Shown here: in pieces, positions 18,487 to 59,898 of the stretch
Layout of the letters: every line of letters begins with the position of its first letter
How positions within the stretch are numbered: the stretch's first letter is position 1
From: a virus
Lineage: Duplodnaviria > Heunggongvirae > Uroviricota > Caudoviricetes
DNA length: 64,000 nt
IMG/VR virus record: IMGVR_UViG_3300035698_025354
Strand: one strand, 5' to 3'
Position numbers and translations under genes: made by a program
The notes under the pieces: model-generated
Told to the model about the DNA's origin: nothing
The model's input: the letters and a program-made list of their open reading frames with translations, nothing else
Databases searched by the model: none

Positions 18487-21357
18487 ATGTCAGTATTCCT
18501 AAGCCCAGGCGTTTTTCCACGAGAAATCGACCTAAGTGTATTACCAACAAGTATTGGTCCATTACGACCAGGATTTCTTGGGACAGCCAAAAAAGGCCCA
18601 TTAAATGTCCCAATCCTGGTTACTAATGCAACCCAATATGTTGAAACATTCGGCAATCCATTCCCAGAAATTTATCTTGGGTATGCTGTTATGGCATACT
18701 TGGAAGAAGGAAACGCATGCTATGTAATGCGTGTTGGGATTGAATGCGAAACAGGGCAACCATCCTCGTTATCAAGTGTCTGCGTTGATACTTCAGGCAA
18801 TAGAGGTGCTGGGTGGGGCAGAATCCCATTATTCTCCGGTATCGATTATGGTAGAATCGATTTACGAACGATTGGCGATGGAACAGATGATAATCCTGAG
18901 CCGTTGACCTTCCATGATGCAGAAATAGAAAATATTGATTACACTGATGTTGAAGTTTCAACAACTGATGGTGCAACAACTGCAACGTTAAATACCTTTG
19001 GTGCTTATAATGGATCGATTGATGATTCATTCGTTATGATCATTACAAGCCCGCCAGGTTTGTCTGATGTCGCGTCGGTTTCTGGTGCCGAATATCAAAT
19101 CGTTAGAAATAGCGACGGTGAAATTGTTGCTGAAGGTACGCTGACCGATGATGCAGCAGACGGAACATCGCAATTTATTCCAGTCGGAACAAGCGGATTT
19201 TCAATTCAAGTCGAAGTAACTTCTGGTGTTTTAGACACTAATGATACTTTCACTTGGTCTGTGAAGCCCGATAATAGAGATTTTTCTATTTCTGTTGATG
19301 GTGGTGTTGCAAATTCTTACTCCATGCTGGCTGCTTCATACACAACTGTTTCATCATTCATCACAGCTGCTAATGCACTTCTCAGTAGTGAAGATTATCA
19401 ATTTGTTGAATATACCTTAAGTGACGGTGTCACAATTATTCCGCAAATCAGATCAACCATTTCTGGTGAGAGAATCCAATTGATGACAACTCAGGGTTTT
19501 GCTCTTGAAGTTGGCACTCAACAATATGCGTGGGATATTCCAAGAGCTTATTTGATTGGTACTGATCAAGGCCCGTATGATATTACTACGCAAAATAGTC
19601 GTGTTAAAATTAATATCATTGGCTCTGAAGAGACCGAAGAAGTTGAATTTAATATTCCATCTGGTCTTGCACAAACCACTGAGGCAATTGCTCCTATTGT
19701 TGATGCTGCTGGTGTTGTTGCTGGTGATGTTGTTTGGAACGCTTATTCCCTGACAATCCCCGGTGGTGCTACTCATTTGGTGATTGAAACTTCTTCTTCG
19801 CATCAGCTTGATACTATTGAGATGTTATCAAACTACTCAAATATTAAGACTCTTCGGTTTGCTGAAGAATTTAATATCACATATCCCTACAAGGGAACAT
19901 ATCGTGGGTTTGTTGATAATAGGGTTACTTTACCAGCTTCTGGTGAAAATGATTCTTCAACACCATTGTCTTGTGAAACTGACTCTAGTAGCACTACTTG
20001 TACTAATGACACAACATACTTTGCTAATATTGTTGGATGGTTAGTTGCACCATCTGCTGGTACATGGATGGCTGGTATTACTGCCACTCTTTCACTTTAC
20101 ACACAAGGTCTTGGTGATGCGTCCGGTAGGTATTCGTTAGCACTAACTGGTGTTAATGGTGAAGCATTGGATTTTATTGAGGATATTAGCTTCGATAAGC
20201 GAGAAGATCGTTATGTTGGTAAGGTTATTAATCCCGGTACTAAATATGGTGGTACTAATGGTAATTCATTTGTGAATTGGGATGAACGTCCAGCATTCTT
20301 AAATAATGATGCTAATACATTATCCACTTTTGCTGTTAGACAACCATCGCAGTTTGCTGGGAAAGCATTTACTGGAATGGCTAATGGTATTCCAACTGAT
20401 CCGGCTTACTCCAGTGAGTTGGATGCGGCAATTATTGGTAATCCAGCACTTTCTACTGGATTGTATGCCTTTCAAAACCCTGAATCGATCGACATTAATT
20501 TATTGTTAACTCCTGGTTTTTCGACTGGGGCTGTTATCGGAACCGCCCTGCAGTTGTGTGAAAGCCGTGGTGATGTTCTTTACATTGTCGATCCTCCTTT
20601 TGGTCTTCGTCCTCAACAGGCTGTTGATTGGCATAATGGTATGCTATTGTCGGACTTAAGAGCTGCTATTAATAGTAGTTATGGTGCCATGTACTGGGGA
20701 TGGTTAAGAATTTACGATCAATTTAATTCTATTGAAATGTGGGTTCCTCCTAGTGGTCATGTTTCTGCTGTATTCAGTAGAACTGCTCGTGAGGCAGAAC
20801 AATGGGCAGCTCCTGCTGGCTTAAGACGTGGTAAACTCTTGACTGCTCTTGATGTTGAATTTTCACCAACACAGGGTGAACGTGATTTGCTTTATGGTTC
20901 CGGAAATGCTGTGAATCCGATTGTTAAATTCCCTCAGGATGGAATTGTTGTTTACGGTCAGCGTACTTTGCAACGTACACAATCTGCTTTGGATCGTGTA
21001 AATGTTAGAATGTTGATGACCTTTGTTAAGAAAAATCTTGTTCAGCTTTTAAGAAATTACATCTTTGAACCAAATGATAAGATTTTGTGGCGTCAAGTTC
21101 AATCGACAATTGAACCATTTTTGTCTGATATTCAGTCTAGGCGTGGACTTTCCGCGTATCGTGTTATTGTTGATGAGACTAATAATACTGCTGAGAGGCA
21201 AGATAGGAATGAATTGTGGGTATCGGTATTCTTAAAGCCGACTCGGACTGTGGAATTTGTTGTTTTAAACCTCGTTGTTTTAAGAACGGGTGCATCCTTT
21301 TCAGCTGAAGAAGTTCTCGCGGTTGGTGGGATTGTTGATTCTCAAACTTCAACTTAA
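18487..21357 (+). CDS. contractile tail sheath protein
   Basis: 956 aa. The conserved sheath C-terminal domain (NPIVKFPQDGIVVYGQRTLQ...LDRVNVRMLMTFVKKNL...) is recognisable. GGAG 7 nt upstream. Confidence 0.85.
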   Translation: MSVFLSPGVFPREIDLSVLPTSIGPLRPGFLGTAKKGPLNVPILVTNATQYVETFGNPFPEIYLGYAVMAYLEEGNACYVMRVGIECETGQPSSLSSVCVDTSGNRGAGWGRIPLFSGIDYGRIDLRTIGDGTDDNPEPLTFHDAEIENIDYTDVEVSTTDGATTATLNTFGAYNGSIDDSFVMIITSPPGLSDVASVSGAEYQIVRNSDGEIVAEGTLTDDAADGTSQFIPVGTSGFSIQVEVTSGVLDTNDTFTWSVKPDNRDFSISVDGGVANSYSMLAASYTTVSSFITAANALLSSEDYQFVEYTLSDGVTIIPQIRSTISGERIQLMTTQGFALEVGTQQYAWDIPRAYLIGTDQGPYDITTQNSRVKINIIGSEETEEVEFNIPSGLAQTTEAIAPIVDAAGVVAGDVVWNAYSLTIPGGATHLVIETSSSHQLDTIEMLSNYSNIKTLRFAEEFNITYPYKGTYRGFVDNRVTLPASGENDSSTPLSCETDSSSTTCTNDTTYFANIVGWLVAPSAGTWMAGITATLSLYTQGLGDASGRYSLALTGVNGEALDFIEDISFDKREDRYVGKVINPGTKYGGTNGNSFVNWDERPAFLNNDANTLSTFAVRQPSQFAGKAFTGMANGIPTDPAYSSELDAAIIGNPALSTGLYAFQNPESIDINLLLTPGFSTGAVIGTALQLCESRGDVLYIVDPPFGLRPQQAVDWHNGMLLSDLRAAINSSYGAMYWGWLRIYDQFNSIEMWVPPSGHVSAVFSRTAREAEQWAAPAGLRRGKLLTALDVEFSPTQGERDLLYGSGNAVNPIVKFPQDGIVVYGQRTLQRTQSALDRVNVRMLMTFVKKNLVQLLRNYIFEPNDKILWRQVQSTIEPFLSDIQSRRGLSAYRVIVDETNNTAERQDRNELWVSVFLKPTRTVEFVVLNLVVLRTGASFSAEEVLAVGGIVDSQTST

Positions 21358-23725: not shown

Positions 23726-24796
23726 ATGACAATTGAAGATGATCAAAACGAGTCGCAAGACGAAGAATTAGATTTAGATGGTTCTGTTGAAAATAATAAA
23801 CCAGAAAAATTAGCTGAGGGTTCTGAGGGTTCTGAGGGTTCTGAGGGTTCTAAGGATTTTGTTGGTAAGCTTGAATCACATCATCATGATCTTTCTGATC
23901 TGATTAAACCTGGTGCTACGGCTGAAGAAATTATCAATATTATTGATAGTGTTCCACACGATACTTTGATCCCGTGGGAAGAATGCCATTTACCATCTAT
24001 GGGTTATTATTACGGTTGGCCAGATGGTATTATCAAAGTAAGAGCTATGGGTCAGCAGGCGGAAAAAATTCTTACAACACAACGCCTTGCAAAAACTGGT
24101 CAATCTATTGATCATCTTTTTCAAGAATGTTGCCAATTCCCAGATGGATTTTCTTCCAGCGATCTTTTAGTTGGTGATAGAACATTTTTACTTTATTTCT
24201 TGCGTGGTGTTACCCATGGAAATATGTATGAATTTGCTGTTACTTGTCCAAATGAGGAATGTGAGACAACAAACACTCATGTTTATGATTTGAATGATCT
24301 GCAATCATCCATTACGCCAGCACGAGCAGATATTGGTAATGAGCCATTCAAAGTCACACTACCATTTCTATCTGAGTTGTTTAAGAAGGATATTTGGGTT
24401 GAAGTAAAATTCCTACGAGCATATGATACAAATGATATAGTTGCTCGTAGGAGAATTAGAGATAAAACATTTAAGAAGCGTGGTGGTATTAAGTCTAAGA
24501 CGAAATCTGTTGACCCACGTGAGCAAGTTTCTCAAAATGTTATTTATAGTGATGCTCTTGACAATAACATGGATAAAATGATTGTCAGCTTTTTAGGTGA
24601 TCCAGACCGTTTGAAAATAAGGAGTTTAATTTCTAAGCTGCATTCTAGAGATACGTCTGCTATTAGGGAGTGGATGCGTGAAAACACCCCCGGTATTGAT
24701 ACCTCTATCGAGATTGTTTGTCCAGATTGTGGGCATGAGTTTAAAATGGAGCTTCCGATTACGGAAGACTTTTTTCGCTCGACAAAGCGGAGATGA
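23726..24796 (+). CDS. hypothetical protein with (EGS)4 repeat and C-terminal zinc ribbons
   Basis: 356 aa. Acidic N-terminus. EGSEGSEGSEGS from (GAGGGTTCT)4 at 23816-23851. CPNEEC and CPDCGHEF Cys pairs. Confidence 0.5.
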   Translation: MTIEDDQNESQDEELDLDGSVENNKPEKLAEGSEGSEGSEGSKDFVGKLESHHHDLSDLIKPGATAEEIINIIDSVPHDTLIPWEECHLPSMGYYYGWPDGIIKVRAMGQQAEKILTTQRLAKTGQSIDHLFQECCQFPDGFSSSDLLVGDRTFLLYFLRGVTHGNMYEFAVTCPNEECETTNTHVYDLNDLQSSITPARADIGNEPFKVTLPFLSELFKKDIWVEVKFLRAYDTNDIVARRRIRDKTFKKRGGIKSKTKSVDPREQVSQNVIYSDALDNNMDKMIVSFLGDPDRLKIRSLISKLHSRDTSAIREWMRENTPGIDTSIEIVCPDCGHEFKMELPITEDFFRSTKRR

Positions 24797-24987: not shown

Positions 24988-25788
24988 ATGGAAACGACTA
25001 GAAGAAATTTTATTTGTAGTTCTATCGCAGCTTCTATCTCTATCCCTGCCTTTGGTTTAAGTGAACTTTCTGATGCTGCTGAAAGTCATCAAAATAGCCT
25101 CACTTATGAAGGGCTTGAGACTTTAGAAAACAATCAATTGAGAAAGAATCCAAAATTTGTTAGAAAATTGGTTTCTTATTTTAAAAATAATGAATTTTTA
25201 AAAGATATTGGTATTCAACCTGTTTCAATTGTGAAATATAATCAAGAGTTAAACGATTCAGGCAAATCGGCGGCGTATTACTTAAAAGCCGTTGCTGGTA
25301 ATGAATCATTTAACTTATGGATTGATCGTGCATATGTTGAGCGAGATAGTTCAATATATTTAGAAGATATTGAAAAGCATATTATTAATGTGTTAATTTC
25401 TTCTGCGACTATGAAATCGGATGTATATGGATTTAGGGATAGAGGTCCATTTCTTTCTGATGGGCTTGGTGGTATGGGTAATATTATATCAGCACACTAT
25501 AAAGTATCCGCAACATGTAAAAGGGAACGTAGTGTTGTATATTGCAATGCTTATAATTATAGATTATTATCTGTCCGAAAAATCAAATTATTAAAAAAAC
25601 ATGATATTAATATTAGATGTAATGAGAATATTGATAATGATTCGTTACTTTTGTGTAATTGTGGCGAATCATCCTCATTAGATCATGGGTATATTTTTAT
25701 GCCATGGTATATTGGAGATGATGGGAAATTATTATATCATGGTGAAATTGTTGATGAAAAGCGATTTTGTTTGATTAATATCTTATAA
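24988..25788 (+). CDS. hypothetical exported protein with twin-arginine (Tat)-like signal peptide
   Basis: N-terminus METTRRNFICSSIAASISIPAFG: RR-x-F-I/L followed by a hydrophobic stretch. Confidence 0.45.
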   Translation: METTRRNFICSSIAASISIPAFGLSELSDAAESHQNSLTYEGLETLENNQLRKNPKFVRKLVSYFKNNEFLKDIGIQPVSIVKYNQELNDSGKSAAYYLKAVAGNESFNLWIDRAYVERDSSIYLEDIEKHIINVLISSATMKSDVYGFRDRGPFLSDGLGGMGNIISAHYKVSATCKRERSVVYCNAYNYRLLSVRKIKLLKKHDINIRCNENIDNDSLLLCNCGESSSLDHGYIFMPWYIGDDGKLLYHGEIVDEKRFCLINIL

Positions 25789-25848: not shown

Positions 25849-26712
25849 ATGTCGTGTTCAGAATTATTAAGTGGTGCTTTTCCAAGAATATCAGCCAGAC
25901 GTGGGCAAGTGGTCGATTTAAATGTCGATTTTTTGCATGGTGGTGTTCTTGACGATCCGTACGCAATACGATATGTTGAAATATACAAATCGCAAGTGCT
26001 GCCACATAATTTAGTTTCTACAATACCTATAACTGATCCAGATAATATATTATACCCATCACCAGCCTGCCAAGATACAGTAGCAACTGCTGTAGGGGAT
26101 TGTGGGACAGAACCAACGGCTGATGAAGATTACCTTGCTGGTAAATATCATCTTCCATTTTCAATTCCAGATGACTTTGAAGCACCAAATGTTTATTTTG
26201 ATGTTTGGTATTATTTTGCTAATGATCCATGTGGAAGTTCTTCTGGTTCAGAATGTGATATTGATTCTGCCGAGAATTCTGCTAAATTAATTAAATGCTG
26301 TCATAGATTTTGGGTTTATCCTGATGAATGGTTTTGTGATGACAGATTGCAAACAATCAGATTTGGATTTGAGCCATTAGATCAAAAATTTCATACTCCA
26401 GAGGTTAGACCATTAGAAATTGGTATTATGCCTCTTCCACTATACGATTATAATTTTAATCTTGTTAATCCGATTATACCATTTTTGCAGCCAACAATCA
26501 CTGTTGAAACACAACATAATGAATTATTAATTAACAATGAAGTATGTACAATTGGCTTACGACAGGGATCTTATCGTTCTAATCCATGGGTTATAAAATA
26601 TGATCTTGATACTACTAGGTTTTTAAAAGGGACATATAGTTACCAGATAAAATTAACCTTACCGAATCAAACTACTATAGTTAGTAGAAAATTCATTTTT
26701 ACTATTTCTTAA
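25849..26712 (+). CDS. Cys-rich hypothetical protein
   Basis: 287 aa with several cysteines (CQD...CGT...CGSSSGSEC...CC...C). Confidence 0.45.
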   Translation: MSCSELLSGAFPRISARRGQVVDLNVDFLHGGVLDDPYAIRYVEIYKSQVLPHNLVSTIPITDPDNILYPSPACQDTVATAVGDCGTEPTADEDYLAGKYHLPFSIPDDFEAPNVYFDVWYYFANDPCGSSSGSECDIDSAENSAKLIKCCHRFWVYPDEWFCDDRLQTIRFGFEPLDQKFHTPEVRPLEIGIMPLPLYDYNFNLVNPIIPFLQPTITVETQHNELLINNEVCTIGLRQGSYRSNPWVIKYDLDTTRFLKGTYSYQIKLTLPNQTTIVSRKFIFTIS

Positions 26713-26727
26713 TAGGTATAATCTAAA

Positions 26728-27180
26728 ATGAACAAAACAGATTGTTGTATATCTTCAAACAGAATAAAATTTAAACCAAGCCATCTGTCGAGAATAAAAG
26801 AATTGACGGAGGTTTTTGAAAATGACGACTTTGAATTAGTTAAATTATTCTTCAATCTATCACCTGAAATGTTTTGTGTATTGTCAAGAGATTTCAGATT
26901 TATCAAAACAAATAAATCATGGCAATCGATTCTGGGGTGGTCAACACAAGATCTTACAGATAAATCAGTTCTTGATTTTATCCATAAGGACGATATTGAA
27001 TGTATTAAGAATGCGTTTAATTCATATGATGTTGACCCAGTTACAGTCATTTTGCGTTGTAAAATTAAAAAAGATGGATATAAAAATTTAGAATGGAACA
27101 TATTATTTTGGAAAGATGAAAGATTTTATGCTGTTGTGAGAGAAGCATCTTCAAAATGCGTGAAATGTGCGTCTAAATAA
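26728..27180 (+). CDS. PAS-domain protein
   Basis: LSPEMFCVLSRDFRFIKTNKSWQSILGWSTQDLTDKSVLDFIHKDDIE followed by beta-strand-like segments matches a PAS fold. About 150 aa, single domain. Confidence 0.55.
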   Translation: MNKTDCCISSNRIKFKPSHLSRIKELTEVFENDDFELVKLFFNLSPEMFCVLSRDFRFIKTNKSWQSILGWSTQDLTDKSVLDFIHKDDIECIKNAFNSYDVDPVTVILRCKIKKDGYKNLEWNILFWKDERFYAVVREASSKCVKCASK

Positions 27181-27193
27181 GATTGGTTATCGT

Positions 27194-27601
27194 ATGCCTA
27201 TGCCAACAAGGTCTTCTAGCGATAGTTGGAATGAGTACAAAAGACTAGTTCTATCAGAATTACAACGATTAAACGATTGTGCTGAAAAATTACGTACAGA
27301 CCAAGAAAAATTAAGAATTGAAATGTCAAAAAGCTATGATATTATTTATAAATCAACAGATGAAAAAATAAAGACTTGTGGTGAAGCAATAATGTTAGCT
27401 AATGCTGAAAGAGTAGAACAATATTCTAATTCTATACAAAAAGATATGTCTGATTTAAATGCTAAAATTAACGCCTTAAATGAAACTATTGAAAAATCGG
27501 GTGTTCAAGAATTGAAAAAACATAGCATAACATTTTGGACTTCAATTATAACAGCACTTGTGGCTGTTATAACAATCATTGGATCTATGCTTCTTAAATA
27601 A
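27194..27601 (+). CDS. coiled-coil protein with C-terminal transmembrane anchor
   Basis: Long K/E/L heptad region, then FWTSIITALVAVITIIGSMLL at the extreme C-terminus. ATG at 27194 (an in-frame GTG at 27167 is possible). Confidence 0.45.
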   Translation: MPMPTRSSSDSWNEYKRLVLSELQRLNDCAEKLRTDQEKLRIEMSKSYDIIYKSTDEKIKTCGEAIMLANAERVEQYSNSIQKDMSDLNAKINALNETIEKSGVQELKKHSITFWTSIITALVAVITIIGSMLLK

Positions 27602-27619
27602 AAATGTATTAAATATGGT

Positions 27620-28720
27620 ATGATCCAAATTAAGAAAAATTTTAAAAATATTCCCCCCCAAGCTATAGAAAGATGGGTGGATAAAAATTTTGACTATAAA
27701 AAGAGAAAAGGTAAAAATGGAGAAGAACTATTAATAGAAAATCCATTTTATCATAATGATAATAAAAAGTTTAATATCTCTCTGAGTAGAGCTGCATGCC
27801 ATGATTGGAGAGGAGATGAATGGGCCGGACCAATAAATCCGGAAACAGGGAAAAGAAATTGCTCATTTATAAAATTTGTCAGATTATATAATAAATGCTC
27901 GTATAAAGAGGCATTGGAAGATATCCTTGGTGACAAGGAAGACATTAGAGACTTTCTGAAACCAGAAGGCCGAATGACGGATAAGGAAGCCCAGAAAAAG
28001 GTATCTGTTGCTCTTCCTAATGGTGCAAGATTATTATCGAACGCTAATGACACACAAGCAAATGCTCTTAAAAAATGGCTAAATACTAGGGGATATTCGG
28101 AAGAAGATATTTCGAAAAATGAATTGTACTATCTTGGAATGGAAGTCTATTGGCCATACTATGAATTCGACACATTAATATACTGGCAAAGCAGATCACG
28201 TGTTAACAAAAGATTTAACTTTCCATCATTAGAAGTGTATGATAAAGATGGAAAAGTGGTTGGAATTACAGACGGGACAAAAGGAGATTTTTTATATGGA
28301 TTCGATGACATAGAAGCAGCCTCATATGTTATTATAACTGAAGCAATATTTGATAAGCATATCTTGGGAGAACAAACACTGGCGTCCGGTGGAGCAGTGG
28401 TCACAGATAATCAAATAAAAAAACTAAAAATACTTGGACCTAAGAAAGGAGTGATATTGTCTCCAGATAATGATAAAGCCGGGATTAATAGTATAATTAG
28501 CAATGTTAATCTTTTGTCAAGACACGGTCTAAAAATATACTTTTCAATACCACCAAGAATTAAATATATAAAAAAGGGTGAAAAATTGATGACTAAAGAT
28601 TGGAATGAATTTTTCACTGAGTTAAATATGTCAACAGATGAAATTAGAAAAATTCACGATAAAAATATAAAATCAGCTAACACAATGGAACTGGTGAAAT
28701 TGCGGAAGATTTTGAAATAA
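27620..28720 (+). CDS. DnaG-type DNA primase (TOPRIM domain)
   Basis: TOPRIM signature: conserved Glu in VIITEAIFD and DxD in ILSPDNDKAG. A Cys/His-rich N-terminal region is a possible zinc-binding domain. Confidence 0.5.
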   Translation: MIQIKKNFKNIPPQAIERWVDKNFDYKKRKGKNGEELLIENPFYHNDNKKFNISLSRAACHDWRGDEWAGPINPETGKRNCSFIKFVRLYNKCSYKEALEDILGDKEDIRDFLKPEGRMTDKEAQKKVSVALPNGARLLSNANDTQANALKKWLNTRGYSEEDISKNELYYLGMEVYWPYYEFDTLIYWQSRSRVNKRFNFPSLEVYDKDGKVVGITDGTKGDFLYGFDDIEAASYVIITEAIFDKHILGEQTLASGGAVVTDNQIKKLKILGPKKGVILSPDNDKAGINSIISNVNLLSRHGLKIYFSIPPRIKYIKKGEKLMTKDWNEFFTELNMSTDEIRKIHDKNIKSANTMELVKLRKILK

Positions 28721-29323
28721 TTATGAAAGAATCAGCCCAACAGCTTTTTCTAATTTTAAGACAAGTGGATAAATTGGGTCATCTTTTTCGATTTTTTTAA
28801 TCGTATTTGCCGTGGTTATGAAGGACCCGCTATAGTTTGATCTAAAACATCCGTCTGAGCAGAAAATTAAATTAAAAAAAGTATGGTCGTCACCGATTTC
28901 ATCCTTATATGATTTTTTGGTTTCAATCCTTAATCGTAAACCTGGATAACATTCTGGATGTTGTAGACGATTTTCGTCGATTTTTTTATATGATTTATTA
29001 TTTAAGTCAATTTCTACCCATTGCGGATCTTGGCATTTGTTTTGTGTTCCGATAATGGCTGCGATTGTCGCTAATTTTTGCAGAGTATGATCTGTTATCG
29101 GTTTATAATCATATTGATTGACGTATCCTTTTTCTTGCTTTTTATAAGTGGCACTAGAAATCCACGATTCAGCTTGGTAGTCTGTTGGGAATGGTTTGGT
29201 TTTTGATTGTCCTTTTGTTCCTATTCTCCCCCATTTTGTTGTGACGATTTTAGTGCTTTTGTTGTATTCTGCGATCCAAAATTTATTATGGATATCGTCT
29301 TGATGAATTAGTATTGTTTTCAT
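28721..29323 (-). CDS. WGR-domain protein
   Basis: FWIAEYNKSTKIVTTKWGRIGTKGQSKTK matches the WGR (Trp-Gly-Arg) domain signature. 200 aa. Abuts the primase stop convergently with zero spacing. Confidence 0.5.
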   Translation of the reverse strand: MKTILIHQDDIHNKFWIAEYNKSTKIVTTKWGRIGTKGQSKTKPFPTDYQAESWISSATYKKQEKGYVNQYDYKPITDHTLQKLATIAAIIGTQNKCQDPQWVEIDLNNKSYKKIDENRLQHPECYPGLRLRIETKKSYKDEIGDDHTFFNLIFCSDGCFRSNYSGSFITTANTIKKIEKDDPIYPLVLKLEKAVGLILS

Positions 29324-29583
29324 TATTCTCTCAATGAATGGATTTTGCCAATGGTCGCTATTTTTAGATTATTGGTGGTTGCCCATTTTTTTATTTTATT
29401 TAGTCTTTTTATTGATAATTTTTCGGTGTCCCCTAACTCAATCATACCTGTTATTGAGTTAGGGGTACTGCCGCCGCCAAATAAACAATCATTTAGTTCG
29501 ATAGCTTCGTCGATGAATCTGTATATCATATTTTCATTAGTGTCAAATTCAAGACTGATTTCAACTCCGAAGATATCTTTCAT
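29323..29583 (-). CDS. hypothetical small protein
   Basis: 86 aa, translationally coupled (ATGA overlap) to the WGR gene, same strand. Confidence 0.4.
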   Translation of the reverse strand: MKDIFGVEISLEFDTNENMIYRFIDEAIELNDCLFGGGSTPNSITGMIELGDTEKLSIKRLNKIKKWATTNNLKIATIGKIHSLRE

Positions 29584-29585
29584 TT

Positions 29586-30782
29586 TTACTTGCTTTCGTT
29601 CAGTGGGATTGTTGCTCGAACTCCAAAACTTCCGGGTGATTTATCCATGTCTATCCAGAGAGTTCCTTGTCCGGCGAAGATTAATTGTAATTTAACATCA
29701 CTTGGTAGGTTTGTTGCGAAATACCAGTTGTTGTATGCCTTGGCGGTGCCAAATGCTTCCACTGCTAATCTGAATCTGTCAGATTTGGCCTCTTCGATAA
29801 GAAGTTTTCCGTCATTTTCAGCTTTTCCAAGTATTTCAACCGCTTGTGCCTTTAATTCTTCTGTTTCTTTTTTAATTGACGCAATTTGTCTTTGGGTGTC
29901 GGCTCGAATTCCTTCTGCTTTACGATTTCCACCCGCATGTTTTGATGCGACTAATCTTAATGTTTCTACTTCAACCGTTTTTGTTGCTAAAGTGACATTT
30001 TCTTCTGCCTCTCTTAATTTTCCTTCCTCTTTGGCCGTGATTTGTTGTTGTTGTCTTGTTAAGGTGTTTTCATCTGCAATAAAGCTTTGTTGAATTGGCT
30101 CACGAACTTCTTTTGGAACGTAGACATGTCTAACAAGGCCGTATAACACGGTAATTTGTTTATTATCTAATACTGAATGAAATTCTGAAACGATTGATCC
30201 TTGAAAAATTTCTCGTTCATTCCCAACTAGCAATTCGACTGCTTTATATTCAGATCCATTATTTCTGCAGATCGATTCAATTTGCGGGATAACAATTTTT
30301 TCTTCTACCATATCAACATTACCGATGGTCCGAACAGCATGGGCCGCTTGATCTGGCATTAAACCCCAGATTGCCGTAAAGTCAATGTGCATTTTAAACC
30401 CATCACTTGATGGGAATTCAATACCACTACTTGCGTCGGCAATTATTGGCTCACCTGATATTTCATCGGCGACGGTTTTACCATCTTTATCGTGTTTTAC
30501 TTCTGTTTGAACTGTAGAATGCGTGTATCCAATTTCTACAATATCAATGTTTTGTTCACGACCATTGATTGGATAAATTCCAGGTGGTAAAACGTTGTTT
30601 TGGACTCCCTTTATCATTTTAGTGGTCGGGTCGTCTGATAAATTTGTAACAACTCCGACATATCCTGTTGGGATATTAACCCATCCAGCGACTTTCTTTT
30701 GATTACCACTTTCAAATTCTTGGAGTTGCACAATTTCCACTGTATATCCGTATGGATTGACTCGATACCGACCGGGATGCAA
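29586..30782 (-). CDS. SPFH/band-7 (prohibitin/flotillin-like) protein with long C-terminal coiled coil; N-terminus truncated by a foreign segment
   Basis: SPFH-like core then a Q/E/K/A-rich coiled coil. Homology to its upstream paralog continues in-frame to ~30899 with no start codon, ending at a stop at the GC-rich junction. The track start at 30782 is a TTG. Confidence 0.55.
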   Translation of the reverse strand: MHPGRYRVNPYGYTVEIVQLQEFESGNQKKVAGWVNIPTGYVGVVTNLSDDPTTKMIKGVQNNVLPPGIYPINGREQNIDIVEIGYTHSTVQTEVKHDKDGKTVADEISGEPIIADASSGIEFPSSDGFKMHIDFTAIWGLMPDQAAHAVRTIGNVDMVEEKIVIPQIESICRNNGSEYKAVELLVGNEREIFQGSIVSEFHSVLDNKQITVLYGLVRHVYVPKEVREPIQQSFIADENTLTRQQQQITAKEEGKLREAEENVTLATKTVEVETLRLVASKHAGGNRKAEGIRADTQRQIASIKKETEELKAQAVEILGKAENDGKLLIEEAKSDRFRLAVEAFGTAKAYNNWYFATNLPSDVKLQLIFAGQGTLWIDMDKSPGSFGVRATIPLNESK

Positions 30783-31388: not shown

Positions 31389-31565
31389 TCAGTTTTCCGA
31401 CACGTCGCCTACCACTTGACTGGTAAAATCTTCCGGATCTTCGGCCAGCGGTTCGCCTTCATCCGGTTCATTCCAGGCGTCACGTTCAATCAGTTTTCCT
31501 TTCCAGGCTTCCCGGATTTCGGGGGCACAATGGGCGACCGCATCGGCCCACGTCGGCCATCGGCT
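31389..31565 (-). pseudogene. 3' fragment (~57 codons) of a foreign gene truncated at the junction
   Basis: Frame reads ...WPTWADAVAHCAPEIREAWKGKLIERDAWNEPDEGEPLAEDPEDFTSQVVGDVSEN-stop. There is no start. It runs into the AT-rich boundary. Confidence 0.4.
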
Positions 31566-32509
31566 TCACGTGCCGAAGAATTAGCACCTTGAATCCTACA
31601 AAATGCACGAGCATTTGGCATGATTACTTTTTTGATAATTTCTTCGGCAATTCTACTAGCCCCTGGTGTATCATTTGTTATATCATTATATGTAACATAT
31701 GTATTAGCGGCTTCGTCGGGTTTTACTCGAAATTCAATGATTGCGTCTAAACTGATTGGAAATCCATCTTTTGATGGAAATAACATGTTTCCACCTTGTG
31801 CTAAATTAAATCGCTGTGACCGAGTGTCGATTGTGTTGATGCGAAATTGGTATGGATTAAGATAATATGTTCCCTCATCTAGAGTTTTCTTTTGAGGTCC
31901 ACGTTTTCCTTCTTCTACCAATAATTGGTTTGGATCATCTGGTATAGGCCCAGATAAGTTTGTTACAATGCCTTTATAACCAGCTGGGATAATCTTCGGT
32001 TCCCAAAGTTCAATTATTTCAACATAATCTGATTTACCACGTTCAATGCCGATAATATTTTTATTATCTTTATCAATAGTGATTGCATTAATCGCGTATC
32101 GCCCAGGTCTTAGAACTTCCGCGATGATTCCTTTTGTCTTGTCAGATGTTGCCATGAAATCACCGCGTGGTAAATCTTCTCCATGTAGTCGAATTCGCAC
32201 ACCCATTTTATCGTGTGGGATTTCAATCATTGGGTAAACTGCCCATTTCCACGAATAGCAATTGTAAAAATATCTGCCTTCTGGTAGAACATTGAGTTGT
32301 AACCCTTTATGATCTGCGTCTGGGGCGATTTCTTGATTATTTTCTAAGTCAATACCAGTTTTCTTTGTGAGAACTGAAAAATGCTTTGCTGGTACATCGA
32401 TTCTGAATTGTGTATACGCAAAATATGCGAAAATGCAAAAGAGTAATGAAAGTGCGATTCCAAGCCCTCCCCCAATTTTCATTAATGATAATTTTCTTTT
32501 GTGGTCCAT
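31490..32509 (-). CDS. SPFH/band-7 protein paralog with N-terminal transmembrane segment; C-terminus replaced by the foreign segment
   Basis: N-terminal TM (IGGGLGIALSLLFCIFAYFAY). SPFH core aligns with 29586..30782 (GIIAEVLRPGRY vs KGILRKVLHPGRY). Homology stops at ~31575 and the frame then reads through GC-rich DNA to a stop at 31490. Confidence 0.55.
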   Translation of the reverse strand: MDHKRKLSLMKIGGGLGIALSLLFCIFAYFAYTQFRIDVPAKHFSVLTKKTGIDLENNQEIAPDADHKGLQLNVLPEGRYFYNCYSWKWAVYPMIEIPHDKMGVRIRLHGEDLPRGDFMATSDKTKGIIAEVLRPGRYAINAITIDKDNKNIIGIERGKSDYVEIIELWEPKIIPAGYKGIVTNLSGPIPDDPNQLLVEEGKRGPQKKTLDEGTYYLNPYQFRINTIDTRSQRFNLAQGGNMLFPSKDGFPISLDAIIEFRVKPDEAANTYVTYNDITNDTPGASRIAEEIIKKVIMPNARAFCRIQGANSSAREADGRRGPMRSPIVPPKSGKPGKEN

Positions 32510-33021: not shown

Positions 33022-36000
33022 ATGTCAGTAGATCCAAACATTTACGCACTTAATATGGAATTATCTCTAAGCACTGTAAGTGCGTATAATGAATTAGATA
33101 AATTTGAAAAATCTGTTGTAGATTTGGAAGAAAGTGTATCTTCAGCTGCTCAAAACGCTATAAATGAAATCAGCCGAACAATTGATAATGCCGCTAAAGG
33201 GCTTGATTCAATAGCAGATTCAATCAAAGGAATAAATTCAGAGAGCGATATACTTTCGTCAACTATGTCTGGGATAGGTATAAATACATCAGACTTTGGG
33301 GACAATGTCAGCGATCAAATGGATGATATAAAAAAGTCTATTGATTATTGGCAACAAATACACGATCTTAATGAAGAAATTGTTGACTTTGGGGAACAGG
33401 AATTAGACAGAGTTAACAGTTATATAAAAGTAATCCAACAAATTACAAAAGCAGTTGATACAAAAAATAAATCACATGAAGAAGAATTAGGTTTAGTAGA
33501 ATCTGAATTTCCAGCTCTTCAGGACATATATGATTCATATCTAAATATAGGTTCTGCAGTAGACGACAGTGCTAAGAAAAATAGGAATCTATTTAATATT
33601 ATAAAACAGGTCGTGGATGTATTCGCACGTGCAGACAAAGCTACAGACAATTTCACACAAGCTAATTATAGATTGTATGGGTCTCAGCAGGAAATTATCC
33701 AAAATGTTAGAATATTAAGTGGTGAGCTTGGGGTCACAGAAAGCACGACGATTGCGGCATATAAAGCCCTAGCAGATATTAAGTATCCAAGAGAAGAAAT
33801 AGGGAAATTAGCGGGTGAAATAGGAAGACTGAATTTAATAACTGGATCTTCTGTGGACACTATGGTTTTGTTTACACATGAGATGAGACAATCCGGTTTT
33901 GATGCGGCAGAGACATCGCGTCAATTGAACATAATGGCAGCAGCTCAGCGGTCTTTGGGCTTATCGACATTTGACCTCAATAAAGTCATGCAGGGCTCTG
34001 CATTAACGATATCACAACAGCTATCGATGTTTGGTAAAGATGCACCAGCAGCATTTCAAATGATGGATATGGGATTGCGTGCTATTAGTAAACAAGTTGG
34101 TATGTCTGAGGCAGATATTGTGTCTTGGAACAAATCACTGCAAGCTACAGGTGTTGAAAGTGTGATGATTTGGCAGAGATTGGCTGGGCTGACAGCAGCA
34201 GAAGCGTCAAAGATTGAAAATAGATATGGGGCGATGGGAACAGCAGCTCAAAATTTCGCCAGACAAGCTGGTATGTCTTTAGAATCTTTAGCTGACCCAT
34301 CTGGGATTTCTCAATCACAACAGATAAAATTACAAGCATTAGCTGATGCTTATGAGGTAACTGTAGAGCAAATGTCTTCAATGGCGAGAGCGTCATTAAA
34401 TTTAACAGATGCTCAAAAAGAACAACTTATGACCACTGATGGTCTAAATAAAGTGTTCGAAGAAACTCTCAAACGCCAAAAAATGTGGTCGGAGACACAA
34501 GCTACATTAACAAGACAACTGCAAAAATTGAAAAATAGTCTATCTGTGGTGCTTAATGTGATTTTGCAGCTTGGAGCAGATGCACTTATCCCACTACTTA
34601 AAGTTTTAAATGTTGTTTTAAGTTCTGTCGCCGGATTCATTAATCTGATAAGATCCGCTATAGGTTGGCTTGAAGAATGGATACCTGGATTTGGTTATGT
34701 TGTAAGTGCTGCTAAATTTATGATAGGGTGGGTCCTCATAGCTGGTGCCGCATTTACAGTGTTTTATAAAGTTGGGGCTATACTTGGCGGGTTCTTTAAT
34801 TTTGTAACAACTGGAATGAACGGAATTGCTGGTGTATTCACATCTGGATTTAATATAATCAAAAGTATAACCAGCGGTATAATGCAAGTCCTTAATACGA
34901 TTGTTAAGGGATTGGCTACATCAATTCGTATAATTGGAAAAGCAGCATCAACAGTAATGCTACCATTATTAGCACTTGGTGCAGCTATGCTTATGACTGG
35001 TACTGCAGCATATATGTTGGCACAATCAGTCAAAATAATCGCAGAAGTTGGTTGGGATGCCGTACCAGCGATAATTGGGCTTATAGCTGCTGTGTCTATA
35101 CTTGGTGGTGTGCTAATATTTCTTGGAAGTTTGGCCCAGGGACCAGTTGCATTGGGTATGTTAGCAGTTGGTGCTACTTTAATGATGGTTGGAGCTGCTG
35201 CTTGGCTTGTTGGAGCCGGTGTTGACATGATGGCTAATGCTTTTTTAAAATTAGCACAAGCTGTTGGTATGCTTTCTACTGATGTGTTACCAAATTTTGC
35301 GTCTTCATTATTAAGGGCGTCATATGATATGTTTGAGGCTTCTGTTCTATTGTTACCAGCCGTATTAGCGTTGTTACCTGGAGCTATAATGCTTGGTATT
35401 GTTGGTGGCATCCTTGGATTGTCTCTTTCGATATTTTCTTACGCTATTGGTGCTTTGGGAGATGCTGGTGTCAGATTTGAAGAAGGAATAAAAGGTATTC
35501 TTAATGGGTCTGATCTTATAAACTCAATAAACTGGGGTAAATTTTTAAGTAGTGCTATAGCATTGGCTAAAATTGGTGCTGCGTTATTAGCAGCGTCTGT
35601 TTTATTCACACCTGCTGCGTATATTATCGGGTCAGCTGGATTAATACTCGGTAGTGGGTTAAAATCGATGGCTAAGGGGGCGGAATTAGCTAGTTCAATT
35701 GATTTTGTTGAGTTAGCTAATAATTTAATGGCTGGTGGGCTAGTATTATTATCAGCTGCTCCGATAATAGCTTATGCGTCAGCTGCGATAATGCCAGGTG
35801 GGTTGCTTTTACTGGCCGCTGGTGCTTCATTATTGGTTGGAGCGTCTGCATTGTATGCTGCATCATACTTAATTAATTCATCTGCTGAATACTTAGAGCC
35901 AGCTGCCGCTAAAATAAAAGCAGCTGTTGATATGTTAAAATCATCGTCTGATGACATGCGTGCTTCTGTTGATGATTTGATTGTTTTTGGATCAAGAATG

Positions 36001-37251
36001 GCTGCTGTTGGAGTTTCTCTGCTTATTGGGTCTATGTCCTTAGGTGTTGCGTCTGTTGCCTTGTATGGTGCATCCAGTGCGATTTATTTAGCTAATGCTG
36101 TGTTTACACCAGCAGCTGCTGCTTTATACCTTTCAGGGAGTGTATTATATGGTGCATCTGAATTAATTCTCATTGCTTCATATAATTTATTATTTTCTTT
36201 TAAAAGATTGTCATATGCCTCTGATACTAGTTTGGAGGTTGGTTATAAATTAGCGTTAGCTGGCACTATGGTCATGTCTGGTGCTGCTATGTTAGCATCT
36301 GGGGCATTTATTTTAGGATTAGCATCTTCTTTAATGGTTTTAGCCGGATCTATGCTATTACCAGCTTCAATATCAATGTTTTTTGGTATGTTGTGGTTAA
36401 GCATGGCGTTGTCTAAATTTTGGAGCATTGCCCCTAAAATCGACACTATTGGTAAAGGGATGCTTTCTCTTGCTACTGGATTCATGATACTTACTGGTTT
36501 AAATTTTGGCGGTTTAACGAATGCTGCTGAAGCTGGATTAAGTTCTATTCCTAAGCTTAACCAATTTGCAACTGAATTAGATAGAGTGTCTGTTAGATTT
36601 GATGATTCTATTGATAGATTTTCAAAGCTAGATGCTAATATTGACGGGTTCGCTGCACGATTAAATATTTCTGCTAATACCTTGGAAAATTCTGTTGATA
36701 AATTTGCTTCACCGGTTAGAAAATTAATTGATGGATTAAATATTTCTGCTAATTCTTTAGATGCTGCTGTAAACAAATTTTCAACACCAGCTGATAGGCT
36801 TGTTGAAACATTGCTTAGAATACAAAATGTTGTTAATAATATTGATTTTCAAGGATTAAATCTTGAATCCGATATAGGTCGCATGGGTATTAATTTAGAA
36901 GAATATGCTACGATGCTTGAAAGAGCATCTGAAAGAATGGAAGTGGCTATTAATTCTAAAGCGATACCCACTATTGAAAATGCTGAAAACGCTGGAATAA
37001 CCGGTATTTCTAGACCGGATTCTATAATGACTGTTAAAATTTTAGATCAGAGAGAAGGTGGTGAAGTTAATAAATCTGAAGAATTATTAACAACATCAAA
37101 TATGCTTCTTATTCAATTATTAGAAGCATTGAAATTAATTGATAATCAAAGCGGAAAAAGCATCTATGATCTTTTGGAATCACATTTGCCACAACTGAAA
37201 AATGATGAGAATGGTTTGATTTCTAATGAGCTTAATGAATGGAATAATTAA
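33022..37251 (+). CDS. tail tape measure protein
   Basis: 1409 aa. Helical N- and C-terminal thirds. Very long Ala/Gly/Leu/Ile-rich central region. Located between the tube and baseplate genes. Confidence 0.8.
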   Translation: MSVDPNIYALNMELSLSTVSAYNELDKFEKSVVDLEESVSSAAQNAINEISRTIDNAAKGLDSIADSIKGINSESDILSSTMSGIGINTSDFGDNVSDQMDDIKKSIDYWQQIHDLNEEIVDFGEQELDRVNSYIKVIQQITKAVDTKNKSHEEELGLVESEFPALQDIYDSYLNIGSAVDDSAKKNRNLFNIIKQVVDVFARADKATDNFTQANYRLYGSQQEIIQNVRILSGELGVTESTTIAAYKALADIKYPREEIGKLAGEIGRLNLITGSSVDTMVLFTHEMRQSGFDAAETSRQLNIMAAAQRSLGLSTFDLNKVMQGSALTISQQLSMFGKDAPAAFQMMDMGLRAISKQVGMSEADIVSWNKSLQATGVESVMIWQRLAGLTAAEASKIENRYGAMGTAAQNFARQAGMSLESLADPSGISQSQQIKLQALADAYEVTVEQMSSMARASLNLTDAQKEQLMTTDGLNKVFEETLKRQKMWSETQATLTRQLQKLKNSLSVVLNVILQLGADALIPLLKVLNVVLSSVAGFINLIRSAIGWLEEWIPGFGYVVSAAKFMIGWVLIAGAAFTVFYKVGAILGGFFNFVTTGMNGIAGVFTSGFNIIKSITSGIMQVLNTIVKGLATSIRIIGKAASTVMLPLLALGAAMLMTGTAAYMLAQSVKIIAEVGWDAVPAIIGLIAAVSILGGVLIFLGSLAQGPVALGMLAVGATLMMVGAAAWLVGAGVDMMANAFLKLAQAVGMLSTDVLPNFASSLLRASYDMFEASVLLLPAVLALLPGAIMLGIVGGILGLSLSIFSYAIGALGDAGVRFEEGIKGILNGSDLINSINWGKFLSSAIALAKIGAALLAASVLFTPAAYIIGSAGLILGSGLKSMAKGAELASSIDFVELANNLMAGGLVLLSAAPIIAYASAAIMPGGLLLLAAGASLLVGASALYAASYLINSSAEYLEPAAAKIKAAVDMLKSSSDDMRASVDDLIVFGSRMAAVGVSLLIGSMSLGVASVALYGASSAIYLANAVFTPAAAALYLSGSVLYGASELILIASYNLLFSFKRLSYASDTSLEVGYKLALAGTMVMSGAAMLASGAFILGLASSLMVLAGSMLLPASISMFFGMLWLSMALSKFWSIAPKIDTIGKGMLSLATGFMILTGLNFGGLTNAAEAGLSSIPKLNQFATELDRVSVRFDDSIDRFSKLDANIDGFAARLNISANTLENSVDKFASPVRKLIDGLNISANSLDAAVNKFSTPADRLVETLLRIQNVVNNIDFQGLNLESDIGRMGINLEEYATMLERASERMEVAINSKAIPTIENAENAGITGISRPDSIMTVKILDQREGGEVNKSEELLTTSNMLLIQLLEALKLIDNQSGKSIYDLLESHLPQLKNDENGLISNELNEWNN

Positions 37252-56979: not shown

Positions 56980-59898
<2,919 letters not shown>

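What the first reader, a model, noticed from the sequence alone, without database searches (positions are those of the whole stretch)
26728..27180. Stand-alone PAS-domain protein in a phage accessory island
A 150 aa single PAS fold with no output domain, next to a Tat-signal protein, a Cys-rich protein and a tail-anchored coiled-coil protein. PAS sensors are uncommon in phages. A solo PAS could sense ligand, redox or light, or act as a decoy for a host PAS-containing regulator.
Basis: partly seen in the sequence, partly recalled or inferred. Interest (0 to 1): 0.55.

Follow-up and report, generated by a model that had tools for sequence, protein, structure and literature searches.

The report
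Phage PAS sensor paired with membrane anchor
The ORF really is a stand-alone PAS-fold protein in an uncultured T4-like phage, and it always travels with the small tail-anchored membrane protein encoded next to it, which points to an undescribed two-gene sensor and membrane-effector cassette of unknown output.

Summary
Observation confirmed. ORF 26728-27180 (+) encodes a 150-aa protein. It passes the curated cut-offs of three Pfam PAS models and of TIGR00229. With a 23-sequence alignment it folds (core pLDDT 92-98) into a canonical five-strand PAS domain (TM 0.88-0.90, rmsd 1.5-1.8 A to solved PAS domains). There is no output domain.

The "accessory island" reading is only partly right. The 287-aa "Cys-rich" neighbour and the primase are core genes of an uncultured T4-like clade. 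The 266-aa "Tat" ORF is a lineage-specific insertion. The real unit is PAS plus the downstream tail-anchored (TA) coiled-coil gene 27194-27601.

Among 43 distinct related backbones, 19 carry both genes, 24 carry neither, and none carries one alone. PAS-TA pairs recur in either gene order in unrelated phage backbones. The conserved N-terminal helix of the PAS protein (xLxRIKELTxxL) also heads a cupin protein and a domain-less protein that sit beside TA genes.

Best explanation: a cytoplasmic PAS sensor docked through that helix to a phage-specific membrane anchor, modulating a membrane event, possibly lysis timing. The ligand and the output are unknown. No heme, LOV or NreB signature is present. 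A C-terminal CxxC occurs in 71% of family members.

The parts
26728..27180 (+). Gene for the 150-aa stand-alone PAS protein
   Evidence: ORF. Pfam PAS, PAS_3 and PAS_4 above cut-off. TIGR00229. AF2 model with core pLDDT 92-98. Foldseek PDB matches to PAS domains.
26770..26826 (+). N-terminal conserved helix motif (residues 15-33, FKPSHLSRIKELTEVFEND; family consensus PSxLxRI[KR]ELTxxL)
   Evidence: R22, L26, T27 and L30 are each >=80% conserved in 51 family members. An HMM of this motif also picks out non-PAS partners of TA genes: the L096 cupin protein and the L154 triple-motif protein. Modelled as helix 20-28 with low confidence.
26842..27147 (+). PAS core (residues 39-140)
   Evidence: Profile matches cover residues 39-123. 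Canonical strand and helix order with pLDDT 92-98. rmsd 1.4-1.8 A to solved PAS domains.
27157..27168 (+). C-terminal CxxC (C144-V-K-C147)
   Evidence: Cys at column 144 in 75% and at column 147 in 69% of sequences. A CxxC lies in the last 45 residues in 36 of 51 family members. Low-confidence region of the model.
27194..27601 (+). Gene for the 135-aa tail-anchored coiled-coil partner (TA)
   Evidence: The start is set by conservation with L006. It is always adjacent to the PAS gene in related backbones, spaced -38 to +24 nt. phrog_2990 (unknown function) matches 11 of 18 members.
27227..27268 (+). Invariant N-terminal motif of TA (W12-N-E-Y-K-R-L-V-L-S-E-L-Q-R25; family W-x-E-Y-[KR]-R-L-V-L-x-E-L-E-R)
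   Evidence: W12, E14, Y15, L18, V19, L20, E22, L23 and R25 are invariant in 18 orthologues that are otherwise 19-51% identical.
27539..27595 (+). C-terminal transmembrane segment of TA (residues 116-134)
   Evidence: Kyte-Doolittle 19-residue maximum of 2.3. A hydrophobic C-terminus is conserved in all orthologues.
25849..26712 (+).
   Evidence: 49-73% identical in 55 IMG/VR loci. It directly abuts the primase where the cassette is absent. No Pfam, PHROG or NCBIfam match.
27620..28720 (+). DNA primase (Toprim); right border of the hotspot
   Evidence: phrog_47 3e-23 and PF13155. 54-62% identical in related loci.
24988..25788 (+). Lineage-specific 266-aa ORF with an N-terminal TRRNFI twin-arginine-like motif; not part of the cassette
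   Evidence: Homologues are found only in identical copies of this phage (L001-L004) and in none of the other related loci. No family hit.
23726..24796 (+). Baseplate hub protein (backbone marker)
   Evidence: PF12322 1.4e-13 and phrog_150. About 50% identical in related loci.

Best explanation
The ORF encodes a genuine cytoplasmic single-PAS protein. It is one half of a two-gene phage cassette. The other half is the tail-anchored membrane protein encoded immediately downstream (27194-27601).

The cassette was inserted once between two core genes (the 287-aa gene and the primase) in an ancestor of a subclade of uncultured T4-like phages. It was then inherited vertically with several losses or replacements.

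Proposed mechanism, with steps marked:
1. The PAS core binds or senses an intracellular cue. This is inferred; the ligand is unknown.
2. The conserved N-terminal amphipathic helix of the PAS protein (xLxRIKELTxxL) pairs with the invariant cytoplasmic helix of TA (WxEYKRLVLxELERL). That would tether the sensor to the inner membrane as a split, kinase-less sensor. This is inferred from strict co-occurrence and from the same helix heading other domain types next to TA genes.
3. The state of the PAS domain changes what TA does in the membrane. The most plausible output is control of a holin-like or lysis-timing event. This is weakly inferred from context in other phages.
4. The frequent C-terminal CxxC may clasp a dimer through a metal or act as a thiol switch. 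This is speculative.
For: PAS identity.

Cassette:
- In 43 distinct hub-p287-primase backbones, 19 have PAS+TA, 19 have p287 abutting the primase, 5 have other cargo, and none has only one of the two genes. L053 keeps a 46-aa TA remnant.
- The chance of perfect co-occurrence is 1.2e-12 if phylogeny is ignored.
- The two genes are spaced -38 to +24 nt on the same strand.
- On the NJ tree of p287+primase the cassette sits in one subclade, with interspersed empty sites. The Fitch minimum is 6 changes.

Independence from the T4-like backbone. PAS-TA pairs occur in other phage contexts and in both gene orders: L101, L106/L107, L122, L124, L125, L127, L128, L140, L152.

The helix as coupling element:
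- An HMM of the N-terminal motif finds, as its three best non-family hits among 5,793 ORFs, exactly three TA neighbours: the L096 Cupin_2 protein (E 0.015), L107 and L101.
- The chance of that is about 1e-8.
- In L154 an 88-aa protein made of three tandem copies of the motif, with no sensor domain, precedes a TA gene.

Membrane or lysis lead:
- L142 reads Holin_LLH-like, lipoprotein, Peptidase_C1, TA. L128 reads Peptidase_C1, TA, PAS.
- A few TA-like proteins hit PHROG 'hemolysin' (XhlA-like) families at about 1e-4.
- XhlA and SPP1 gp24.1 are C-terminally anchored co-holins (PMC6316719).
- The same hotspot in L032/L033 carries a REC receiver, a LydA-holin-like protein and a TM-GAF-PAS protein.

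TA is phage-specific: the scan of 185,579 reference bacterial and archaeal genomes with one exact back-translated TA peptide pattern (EY[KR]RLVL[AS]E) gave only a spurious hit.
Against: - No experiment or complex prediction shows that PAS and TA touch each other. Co-occurrence among related phages is not phylogenetically independent.
- The motif HMM E-values for the non-PAS partners are individually weak (0.015; 1e-3).
- About half of the TA-like genes outside the T4-like clade have no detectable PAS or motif neighbour, so TA can act alone.
- The lysis link is thin. The holin hits are below Pfam cut-offs. hhalign of the TA profile against SPP1 gp24.1 aligns only the TM segment (probability 2%). 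In the window the cassette lies between a baseplate-region gene and the primase, not next to recognisable lysis genes.
- No cofactor signature was found, so 'sensor' is an inference from the fold. Many PAS domains are pure interaction modules.
- The CxxC is missing in 15 of 51 members.
Confidence: 0.45

Rival explanations
1. Decoy or hijacker. The solo PAS domain, captured from a host sensor kinase, heterodimerises with PAS domains of host histidine kinases or regulators and blocks or redirects host signalling. TA merely places it at the membrane, where those kinases sit.
For: The domain is most similar to PAS_3-type domains of long multi-PAS proteins (12,951 hits; several at E<1e-30). A viral hybrid histidine kinase has a PAS domain 37% identical (L020). 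The closest structural matches include PAS domains that work by heterodimerisation (ARNT, HIF, BMAL1). No cofactor signature was found. Membrane tethering would suit targeting of membrane kinases.
Against: The host is unknown, so no target can be named. The family diverges fast (25-36% identity between members, against 55-73% for the flanking genes), which is odd for mimicry of one conserved host interface. The cupin-TA and motif-only-TA pairs show that the partner's body is interchangeable. That fits a sensor input better than a PAS-specific decoy.
Confidence: 0.2
2. Redox or metal switch. The signal is read not in the PAS pocket but by cysteines (C50 and the C-terminal CxxC), which form a disulfide or an inter-subunit Zn or Fe-S site. 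The protein would then report the thiol, oxygen or metal status of the infected cell.
For: The protein has 7 Cys in 150 residues. Column conservation is C50 65%, C144 75%, C147 69%, and a CxxC lies in the last 45 residues in 36 of 51 members. From general knowledge, CxxC pairs from two protomers can share one metal (the Rad50 zinc hook), and NreB is a PAS protein with an Fe-S cluster.
Against: 15 of 51 members lack the CxxC while keeping TA and the synteny. The NreB four-Cys pattern is absent. The tail is modelled with low confidence. No metal-binding profile hit was found.
Confidence: 0.15
3. Morphogenesis or replication accessory. The PAS fold serves as an assembly chaperone or adaptor for the neighbouring baseplate-region protein, or tethers the primase and replisome to the membrane through TA, with no sensing at all.
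For: Its position between the conserved 287-aa gene that follows the baseplate hub and the primase, on the same strand, with no predicted terminator in between.
Against: 24 of 43 related backbones have the same flanking genes (55-73% identical) but lack the cassette, so neither assembly nor priming needs it. The pair also occurs in unrelated contexts without these neighbours.
Confidence: 0.07

Closest known systems
PAS_3 / 'S-box' PAS domains of bacterial sensor histidine kinases (Pfam PF08447, PF00989; TIGR00229)
   Same: Sequence motifs (LGW..EL, FIHP[DE]D, R in G-beta, LEW, YAxAR), the fold, and an N-cap helix. A viral hybrid kinase (L020) has a PAS domain 37% identical.
   Different: No HisKA/HATPase, GGDEF, HTH or any other output domain. 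It is a 150-aa protein encoded by a phage and coupled genetically to a separate tail-anchored membrane protein.
Short stand-alone PAS proteins of cells (for example PYP-like and single-domain PAS proteins) and the 'PAS domain' proteins already annotated in uncultured Caudovirales (BFVD A0A6J5KZZ3, A0A6J5NY05, A0A8D9CBR8)
   Same: Single PAS fold of roughly 150-200 aa with no effector domain, which must therefore signal through protein-protein contacts.
   Different: Only 15% identity to the BFVD examples, so they belong to a different family. No PYP chromophore Cys/Tyr/Glu signature. This family has a specific N-terminal motif, a frequent C-terminal CxxC and an obligatory TA neighbour.
VqmA of vibriophage VP882 (PAS plus HTH quorum-sensing receptor)
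   Same: A phage-encoded PAS protein used to read a small-molecule cue and to decide on a lysis-related outcome (PMC8284805, listed).
   Different: VqmA has a DNA-binding output domain and acts on transcription in a temperate plasmid-like phage. Here there is no DNA-binding domain, and the partner is a membrane protein in a T4-like (presumably lytic) phage.
XhlA of PBSX and gp24.1 of SPP1 (C-terminally anchored co-holins)
   Same: The TA partner has the same architecture: a short N-terminal coiled coil and a single C-terminal TM. Some TA-like proteins give weak hits to PHROG 'hemolysin' families and sit next to holin-like or peptidase genes.
   Different: No detectable homology (hhalign probability 2%, TM segment only). 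No Pfam XhlA hit. TA has its own invariant WxEYKRLVLxELERL motif. No PAS partner is known for XhlA.
Aer-type and other membrane-associated PAS sensors
   Same: A cytoplasmic PAS domain held at the inner membrane and coupled through helices to a transmembrane partner.
   Different: Aer is one polypeptide with FAD, HAMP and a kinase-control module. Here the sensor and the anchor are two proteins, and there is no HAMP and no known downstream kinase.

Membership tests
PAS domain superfamily | Profile match above the curated threshold | tested here: met
   PF00989 28.2 bits (cut-off 22.6), PF08447 27.5 (25.6), PF08448 27.4 (23.1). TIGR00229 39.2 (22.9).
PAS domain superfamily | Five-stranded antiparallel beta-sheet (order B-A-I-H-G) flanked by helices C-alpha to F-alpha | tested here: met
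   AF2 model with core pLDDT 92-98 and the expected order of elements. TM 0.84-0.90 and rmsd 1.4-1.8 A to solved PAS domains.
LOV (FMN-binding) PAS | GxNCRFLQ motif with the adduct-forming Cys | tested here: not met
   NCRF is absent in all 51 family members.
Heme PAS (FixL / EcDOS type) | Proximal His inside helix F-alpha | tested here: not met
   No conserved His in columns 87-98 (frequency <=0.06). H86 belongs to the generic HP[DE]D motif of PAS_3.
NreB-type Fe-S PAS | Four Cys (CxxC-x11-CxxC) within the PAS domain | tested here: not met
   Only C50 is conserved within the domain (65%). The single CxxC lies after the last strand and is missing in 15 of 51 members.
Sensor histidine kinase / two-component system | HisKA and HATPase_c domains, or a receiver domain, in the protein or in the cassette | tested here: not met
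   No such domains in the PAS protein, in TA or in the flanking genes. They are present in other viral contigs (L020, L021).
XhlA / SPP1 gp24.1 holin-like family (for the TA partner) | Sequence homology to PF10779 or gp24.1 | tested here: not met
   No Pfam XhlA hit in 18 members. hhalign against gp24.1 gives probability 2%. Only weak PHROG 'hemolysin' hits, for 2 of 18 members.
XhlA / SPP1 gp24.1 holin-like family (for the TA partner) | Short coiled coil plus a single C-terminal TM; located in a lysis cassette; lethal together with a holin | tested here: inconclusive
   The architecture is met. A lysis-like context is seen only in L142 and L128, not in the window.
Tat-exported protein (for ORF 24988-25788) | Twin-arginine signal peptide | tested here: inconclusive
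   TRRNFI followed by a hydrophobic stretch is visible in the sequence. No family model matched at E<=0.01.

The most novel reading that the evidence does not exclude
The conserved helix pair (xLxRIKELTxxL on the soluble protein, WxEYKRLVLxELERL on the tail-anchored protein) defines a previously unrecognised modular phage signalling system. Interchangeable ligand-binding heads (two kinds of PAS, a cupin, or none) would plug into a holin-like membrane anchor. That would let phages of several unrelated lineages time lysis, or another membrane event, according to the metabolic or redox state of the infected cell, with no kinase or transcription factor involved.
Probability: 0.2. Interest if true: 0.78.

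Novelty: new variant of a known kind. Interest (0 to 1): 0.58.

Why it matters
Lytic phages are usually thought to run a fixed programme. Documented cases of phage-encoded sensors that read the cell's state are few, such as VqmA of VP882 and arbitrium.

Here a bona fide signalling fold is retained under purifying selection in many uncultured large T4-like phages. It is strictly linked to a phage-specific membrane protein, and the same linkage recurs in unrelated phages with other sensor heads.

If the pair controls lysis timing or another membrane decision, it would be a kinase-free way of coupling host physiology to infection outcome in abundant environmental phages. It would also be a compact sensor-to-membrane module for engineering.

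Even in the modest reading, the work gives a testable partner (TA) and a testable interface (two short helices) for an otherwise orphan PAS protein.

Tried and rejected
- Word-indexed protein search with the single protein and with a two-sequence profile found only the identical protein and one 56% relative. The exhaustive HMMER search was needed to see the family.
- tblastn and megablast against 50,697 deposited phage genomes found nothing for the PAS gene, the 287-aa gene or the 12-kb region. The primase gave only 24-25% hits and TerL about 28% to Flavobacterium, Microcystis and Synechococcus phages. There is therefore no cultured relative and no host assignment.
- The first AF2 run, on 2 sequences, was mediocre (pLDDT 61; TM 0.36-0.48 to PAS domains). 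It was superseded by the 23-sequence run.
- A 16-sequence alignment was too diverse for locus scanning.
- The genome-contig scan with the TA motif gave one spurious hit, the C-terminus of a Paenibacillus ABC ATPase.
- The XhlA/gp24.1 homology hypothesis for TA was tested by hhalign and rejected as homology. It is kept only as an analogy.
- The promoter and terminator scan was uninformative in this AT-rich DNA: 44 promoter-like sites against 32.6 +/- 5.5 expected, and no terminator inside the block.
- No tRNAs in the window.
- Shine-Dalgarno usage (17 of 53 genes) gave no host clue.
- dN/dS was mostly not computable because dS is saturated.
- Literature searches found no paper on phage solo-PAS proteins or on PAS-holin links.
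- The antisense ORF 26709-27101 (130 aa) was considered and rejected, because the + frame is the conserved one.
- Pocket and cofactor analysis on the model could not be done, because coordinates are not exposed.

Full report
**1. The observation**

ORF 26728-27180 (+) is present as described: ATG to TAA, 150 aa. It matches three Pfam PAS models above their curated cut-offs: PF00989 28.2 bits (cut-off 22.6), PAS_3 27.5 (25.6) and PAS_4 27.4 (23.1). PAS_9 is just below its cut-off (24.8 against 27). NCBIfam TIGR00229 'sensory_box' scores 39.2 against 22.9. A profile search of PDB sequences finds BMAL1, PER, ARNT and HIF PAS domains (best 2e-7). An exhaustive HMMER search of 1.84 billion representatives finds 12,951 proteins at E<=1e-3, mostly long multi-PAS proteins matched over query positions ~50-155.

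A first AF2 model from two sequences was mediocre (pLDDT 61; TM 0.36-0.48). With 23 family sequences the model has mean pLDDT 82.9, and 92-98 across residues 40-140. It shows the canonical PAS succession of strands (48-52, 57-61, 105-112, 118-127, 133-139) and helices (64-69, 73-77, 81-84, 87-98). Foldseek against the PDB returns 395 hits at E<=1e-3. The top 50 are almost all named PAS domains or PAS-containing proteins. This is a solo PAS protein with an N-cap (two helices, residues 20-44) and a 10-residue tail.

**2. The genome**

The window is a phage of T4-like architecture:
- tail sheath (18487-21357), gp19-type tube proteins, baseplate hub (23726-24796) and baseplate wedge;
- primase (27620-28720), helicase, ribonucleotide reductase, NAD-dependent ligase and large terminase.

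The window has no close relative among 50,697 deposited phage genomes. The PAS gene, the 287-aa gene and the 12-kb region give no match. TerL is about 28% identical to Flavobacterium, Microcystis and Synechococcus myoviruses. The identical PAS protein occurs on five metagenomic contigs, the longest 71.5 kb. The host is unknown.

**3. A family, not an orphan**

The exhaustive search revealed short proteins (124-205 aa) that match the query end to end. Aligned, they share three features:
- an N-terminal motif PSxLxRI[KR]ELTxxL;
- a PAS_3-like core (LGW..EL, FIHP[DE]D, R110, LEW, YAxAR);
- in most members, a C-terminal PxxCxxC.

In 51 distinct members the residues conserved at >=80% are R22, L26, T27, L30, F41, F42, D47, N62, W65, L69, G70, H86, D89, F108, R110, E122, W123, G131, Y134 and R138. 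A CxxC lies in the last 45 residues in 36 of 51 members, and C50 is present in 65%. dS is saturated between members; the one computable pair gives dN/dS of about 0.10.

**4. Context: a two-gene cassette in a hotspot between core genes**

Scanning IMG/VR with the family found 13 loci with the same gene order: hub, small ORF, 287-aa protein, PAS, tail-anchored protein, primase. More distant members on Logan contigs show it too.

Scanning with the 287-aa protein gave 55 loci on contigs up to 408 kb. The hub, the 287-aa gene (49-73% identical) and the primase (54-62%) are always present. Between the 287-aa gene and the primase, three states occur:
- PAS and TA together;
- nothing (a gap of 1-62 nt);
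- other cargo.

After collapsing duplicates there are 43 backbones: 19 with PAS+TA, 19 empty, 5 with other cargo, and none with only one of the two genes. L053 retains a 46-aa TA remnant. Ignoring phylogeny, such perfect co-occurrence has probability 1.2e-12.

On an NJ tree of the two flanking proteins the cassette is confined to one subclade, in which empty and replaced sites are interspersed. The Fitch minimum is 6 changes, which fits one gain and several losses.

- The 287-aa 'Cys-rich' protein is a core gene.
- The 266-aa RR-motif ORF (24988-25788) is found only in this phage's own copies, so it is a separate insertion.
- PAS+TA is the accessory unit.

PAS and TA are spaced -38 to +24 nt on the same strand. 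The true TA start in the window is ATG 27194 (MPMPTRSS...), as shown by the 56%-identical relative L006.

**5. The partner**

TA orthologues are only 19-51% identical to the window protein, yet they share an invariant N-terminal stretch, W-x-E-Y-[KR]-R-L-V-L-x-E-L-E-R. A variable coiled coil follows, then a C-terminal TM segment (Kyte-Doolittle hydropathy 2.3 at residues 116-134).

Database results for TA:
- No Pfam family matches beyond coiled-coil noise.
- phrog_2990 (unknown function) matches 11 of 18 members, and 'hemolysin' PHROGs match 2 of 18 at about 1e-4.
- XhlA of PBSX and gp24.1 of SPP1 are C-terminally anchored co-holins (PMC6316719; PMC10630273). However, hhalign of the TA profile against gp24.1 aligns only the TM segment (probability 2%). 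The resemblance is architectural, not demonstrable homology.
- The scan of 185,579 reference bacterial and archaeal genomes with one exact back-translated TA peptide pattern (EY[KR]RLVL[AS]E) yields only a spurious hit. TA appears to be phage-specific.

**6. The pair outside the T4-like clade, and the coupling helix**

Scans with the TA profile found shorter TA-like proteins (68-131 aa) in unrelated phage contexts. Many are adjacent to a PAS protein, in either order: L101, L106/L107, L122, L124, L125, L127, L128, L140, L152. These PAS proteins begin with the same motif (for example NLTRLRELSEQL, NLLRLRELTERV, TLERLRELSGHL).

Two cases separate the motif from the PAS fold:
- In L096, a Cupin_2 protein (PF07883 7e-8) carrying LTKLRELTSQL precedes a TA-like gene.
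- In L154, an 88-aa protein consisting of three tandem motifs and nothing else precedes a TA gene.

An HMM of the motif alone ranks three TA neighbours as its best three non-family hits among 5,793 six-frame ORFs. The chance of that is about 1e-8. I infer that this helix, not the PAS core, is what links the soluble protein to TA, and that the head domain is an exchangeable input. About half of the TA-like genes outside the clade have no such neighbour.

**7. What the output might be**

Evidence here is thin.
- In L142 the order is Holin_LLH-like (23.5 bits, cut-off 24.9), lipoprotein, Peptidase_C1, TA. In L128 it is Peptidase_C1, TA, PAS.
- In L032/L033 the very same hotspot holds a REC receiver (PF00072 6e-11), a LydA-holin-like membrane protein (below cut-off) and a TM-GAF-PAS protein.

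These contexts, plus the XhlA-like architecture, make control of a lysis-related membrane event the most plausible output, at low confidence. In the window itself no recognisable lysis gene is adjacent.

**8. What the input might be**

- No LOV motif (0 of 51 members).
- No conserved His in F-alpha, so not a FixL/DosP-type heme site.
- No NreB four-Cys pattern.
- The nearest structures (8px4, 3bwl, ARNT PAS-B) are not classic cofactor PAS domains.
- The conserved residues are those of the generic PAS_3 scaffold.
- The C-terminal CxxC (71% of members) and C50 (65%) suggest a possible thiol or metal element, but it is dispensable in 15 members.

The ligand remains unknown. Pocket analysis needs the model coordinates.

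**9. Comparison with known systems and novelty**

As a fold and a family member, this is a PAS_3/S-box domain, and membership is met. It is not a histidine kinase, LOV, heme-PAS or NreB-type protein; the defining features were tested and not met.

PAS domains in viruses are already annotated: short 'PAS domain' proteins of uncultured Caudovirales, the Atu_ph07 kinase and giant-virus kinases. VqmA of phage VP882 is a characterised PAS receptor. None of these has the N-terminal motif and TA linkage, and the BFVD examples are only about 15% identical.

I found no paper on such a pair. I therefore rate it a new variant of a known kind: a known fold in a new, recurrent two-gene arrangement.

**10. 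Verdict**

The interest lies less in 'a PAS in a phage' than in the strictly linked PAS-TA cassette and the portable coupling helix. These give concrete, cheap experiments. Confidence by layer:
- PAS fold: above 0.95.
- Two-gene functional unit: about 0.8.
- Helix-mediated docking: about 0.45.
- Lysis-related output: about 0.2.

Noticed in passing
L032 5893-8505 (= L033; IMG/VR contigs of 228 and 122 kb): At the same hotspot between the 287-aa gene and the primase, these relatives carry a different signalling cargo. It consists of a CheY-like receiver protein (PF00072 6e-11), a 116-aa LydA-holin-like membrane protein (below cut-off) and a 596-aa TM-GAF-PAS protein with no kinase domain.
   Followed up: partly
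L154 3223-3489: An 88-aa protein made of three tandem copies of the xLxx[IL]xELxxxL motif (LLPKIKELEEKI, NLDKLRELHQKL, NLERLQQLHNML), with no sensor domain, lies directly upstream of a 73-aa TA-like gene.
   Followed up: partly
L096 3435-4372: A Cupin_2 protein carrying the PAS-family N-terminal motif is followed by a TA-like protein. In this TA-like protein the TM segment is central and a coiled coil follows it, so the topology differs from the window's TA.
   Followed up: partly
window 29586-30782 (-) and 31490-32509 (-): Two SPFH/Band-7 (stomatin/HflK-like) membrane-scaffold proteins are encoded close together on the opposite strand (PF01145 1.8e-18 for the first; the second is annotated on contig L001). 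The pairing is unusual for a phage, and they lie near the membrane-anchored cassette.
   Followed up: no
window 28721-29323 (-): A 200-aa WGR-domain protein (PF05406 1.4e-13) lies convergent to the primase. It is conserved at this position in many related loci (about 39% identical). Its function in phages is unclear.
   Followed up: no
window 29323-29583 (-): An 86-aa ORF has a sub-threshold match to YggL, a 50S ribosome-binding protein (PF04320, 21.4 bits against a cut-off of 27).
   Followed up: no
window 24988-25788 (+): A 266-aa ORF with a twin-arginine-like N-terminus (TRRNFI) and 7 Cys has no homologue in any related locus and no family match. It is a lineage-specific insertion between the small ORF after the hub and the 287-aa core gene.
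   Followed up: partly
window 33022-37251 (+) and 56959-59898 (+): Very large ORFs (1409 and 979 aa) have no PHROG match at 1e-5. The 1409-aa gene is conserved on the related contigs L001, L002, L025 and L026.
   Followed up: no
L020 5941-7500 (93-kb IMG/VR contig): A viral contig encodes a complete hybrid histidine kinase (PAS, HisKA, HATPase_c, REC; 519 aa). Its PAS domain is 37% identical to the window protein, which makes it a possible source type for the solo PAS family.
   Followed up: partly
L128 343-1119 and L142 2625-3500: Papain-family (Peptidase_C1) genes lie immediately upstream of TA-like genes in two unrelated phage fragments. In L142 they follow a holin-like gene and a lipoprotein gene, so they may be unusual endolysin candidates.
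   Followed up: no
L062 6573-10394: Three tandem paralogous genes (361-468 aa, with a DUF982-like stretch) are inserted between the PAS-TA cassette and the primase in a 177-kb relative.
   Followed up: no
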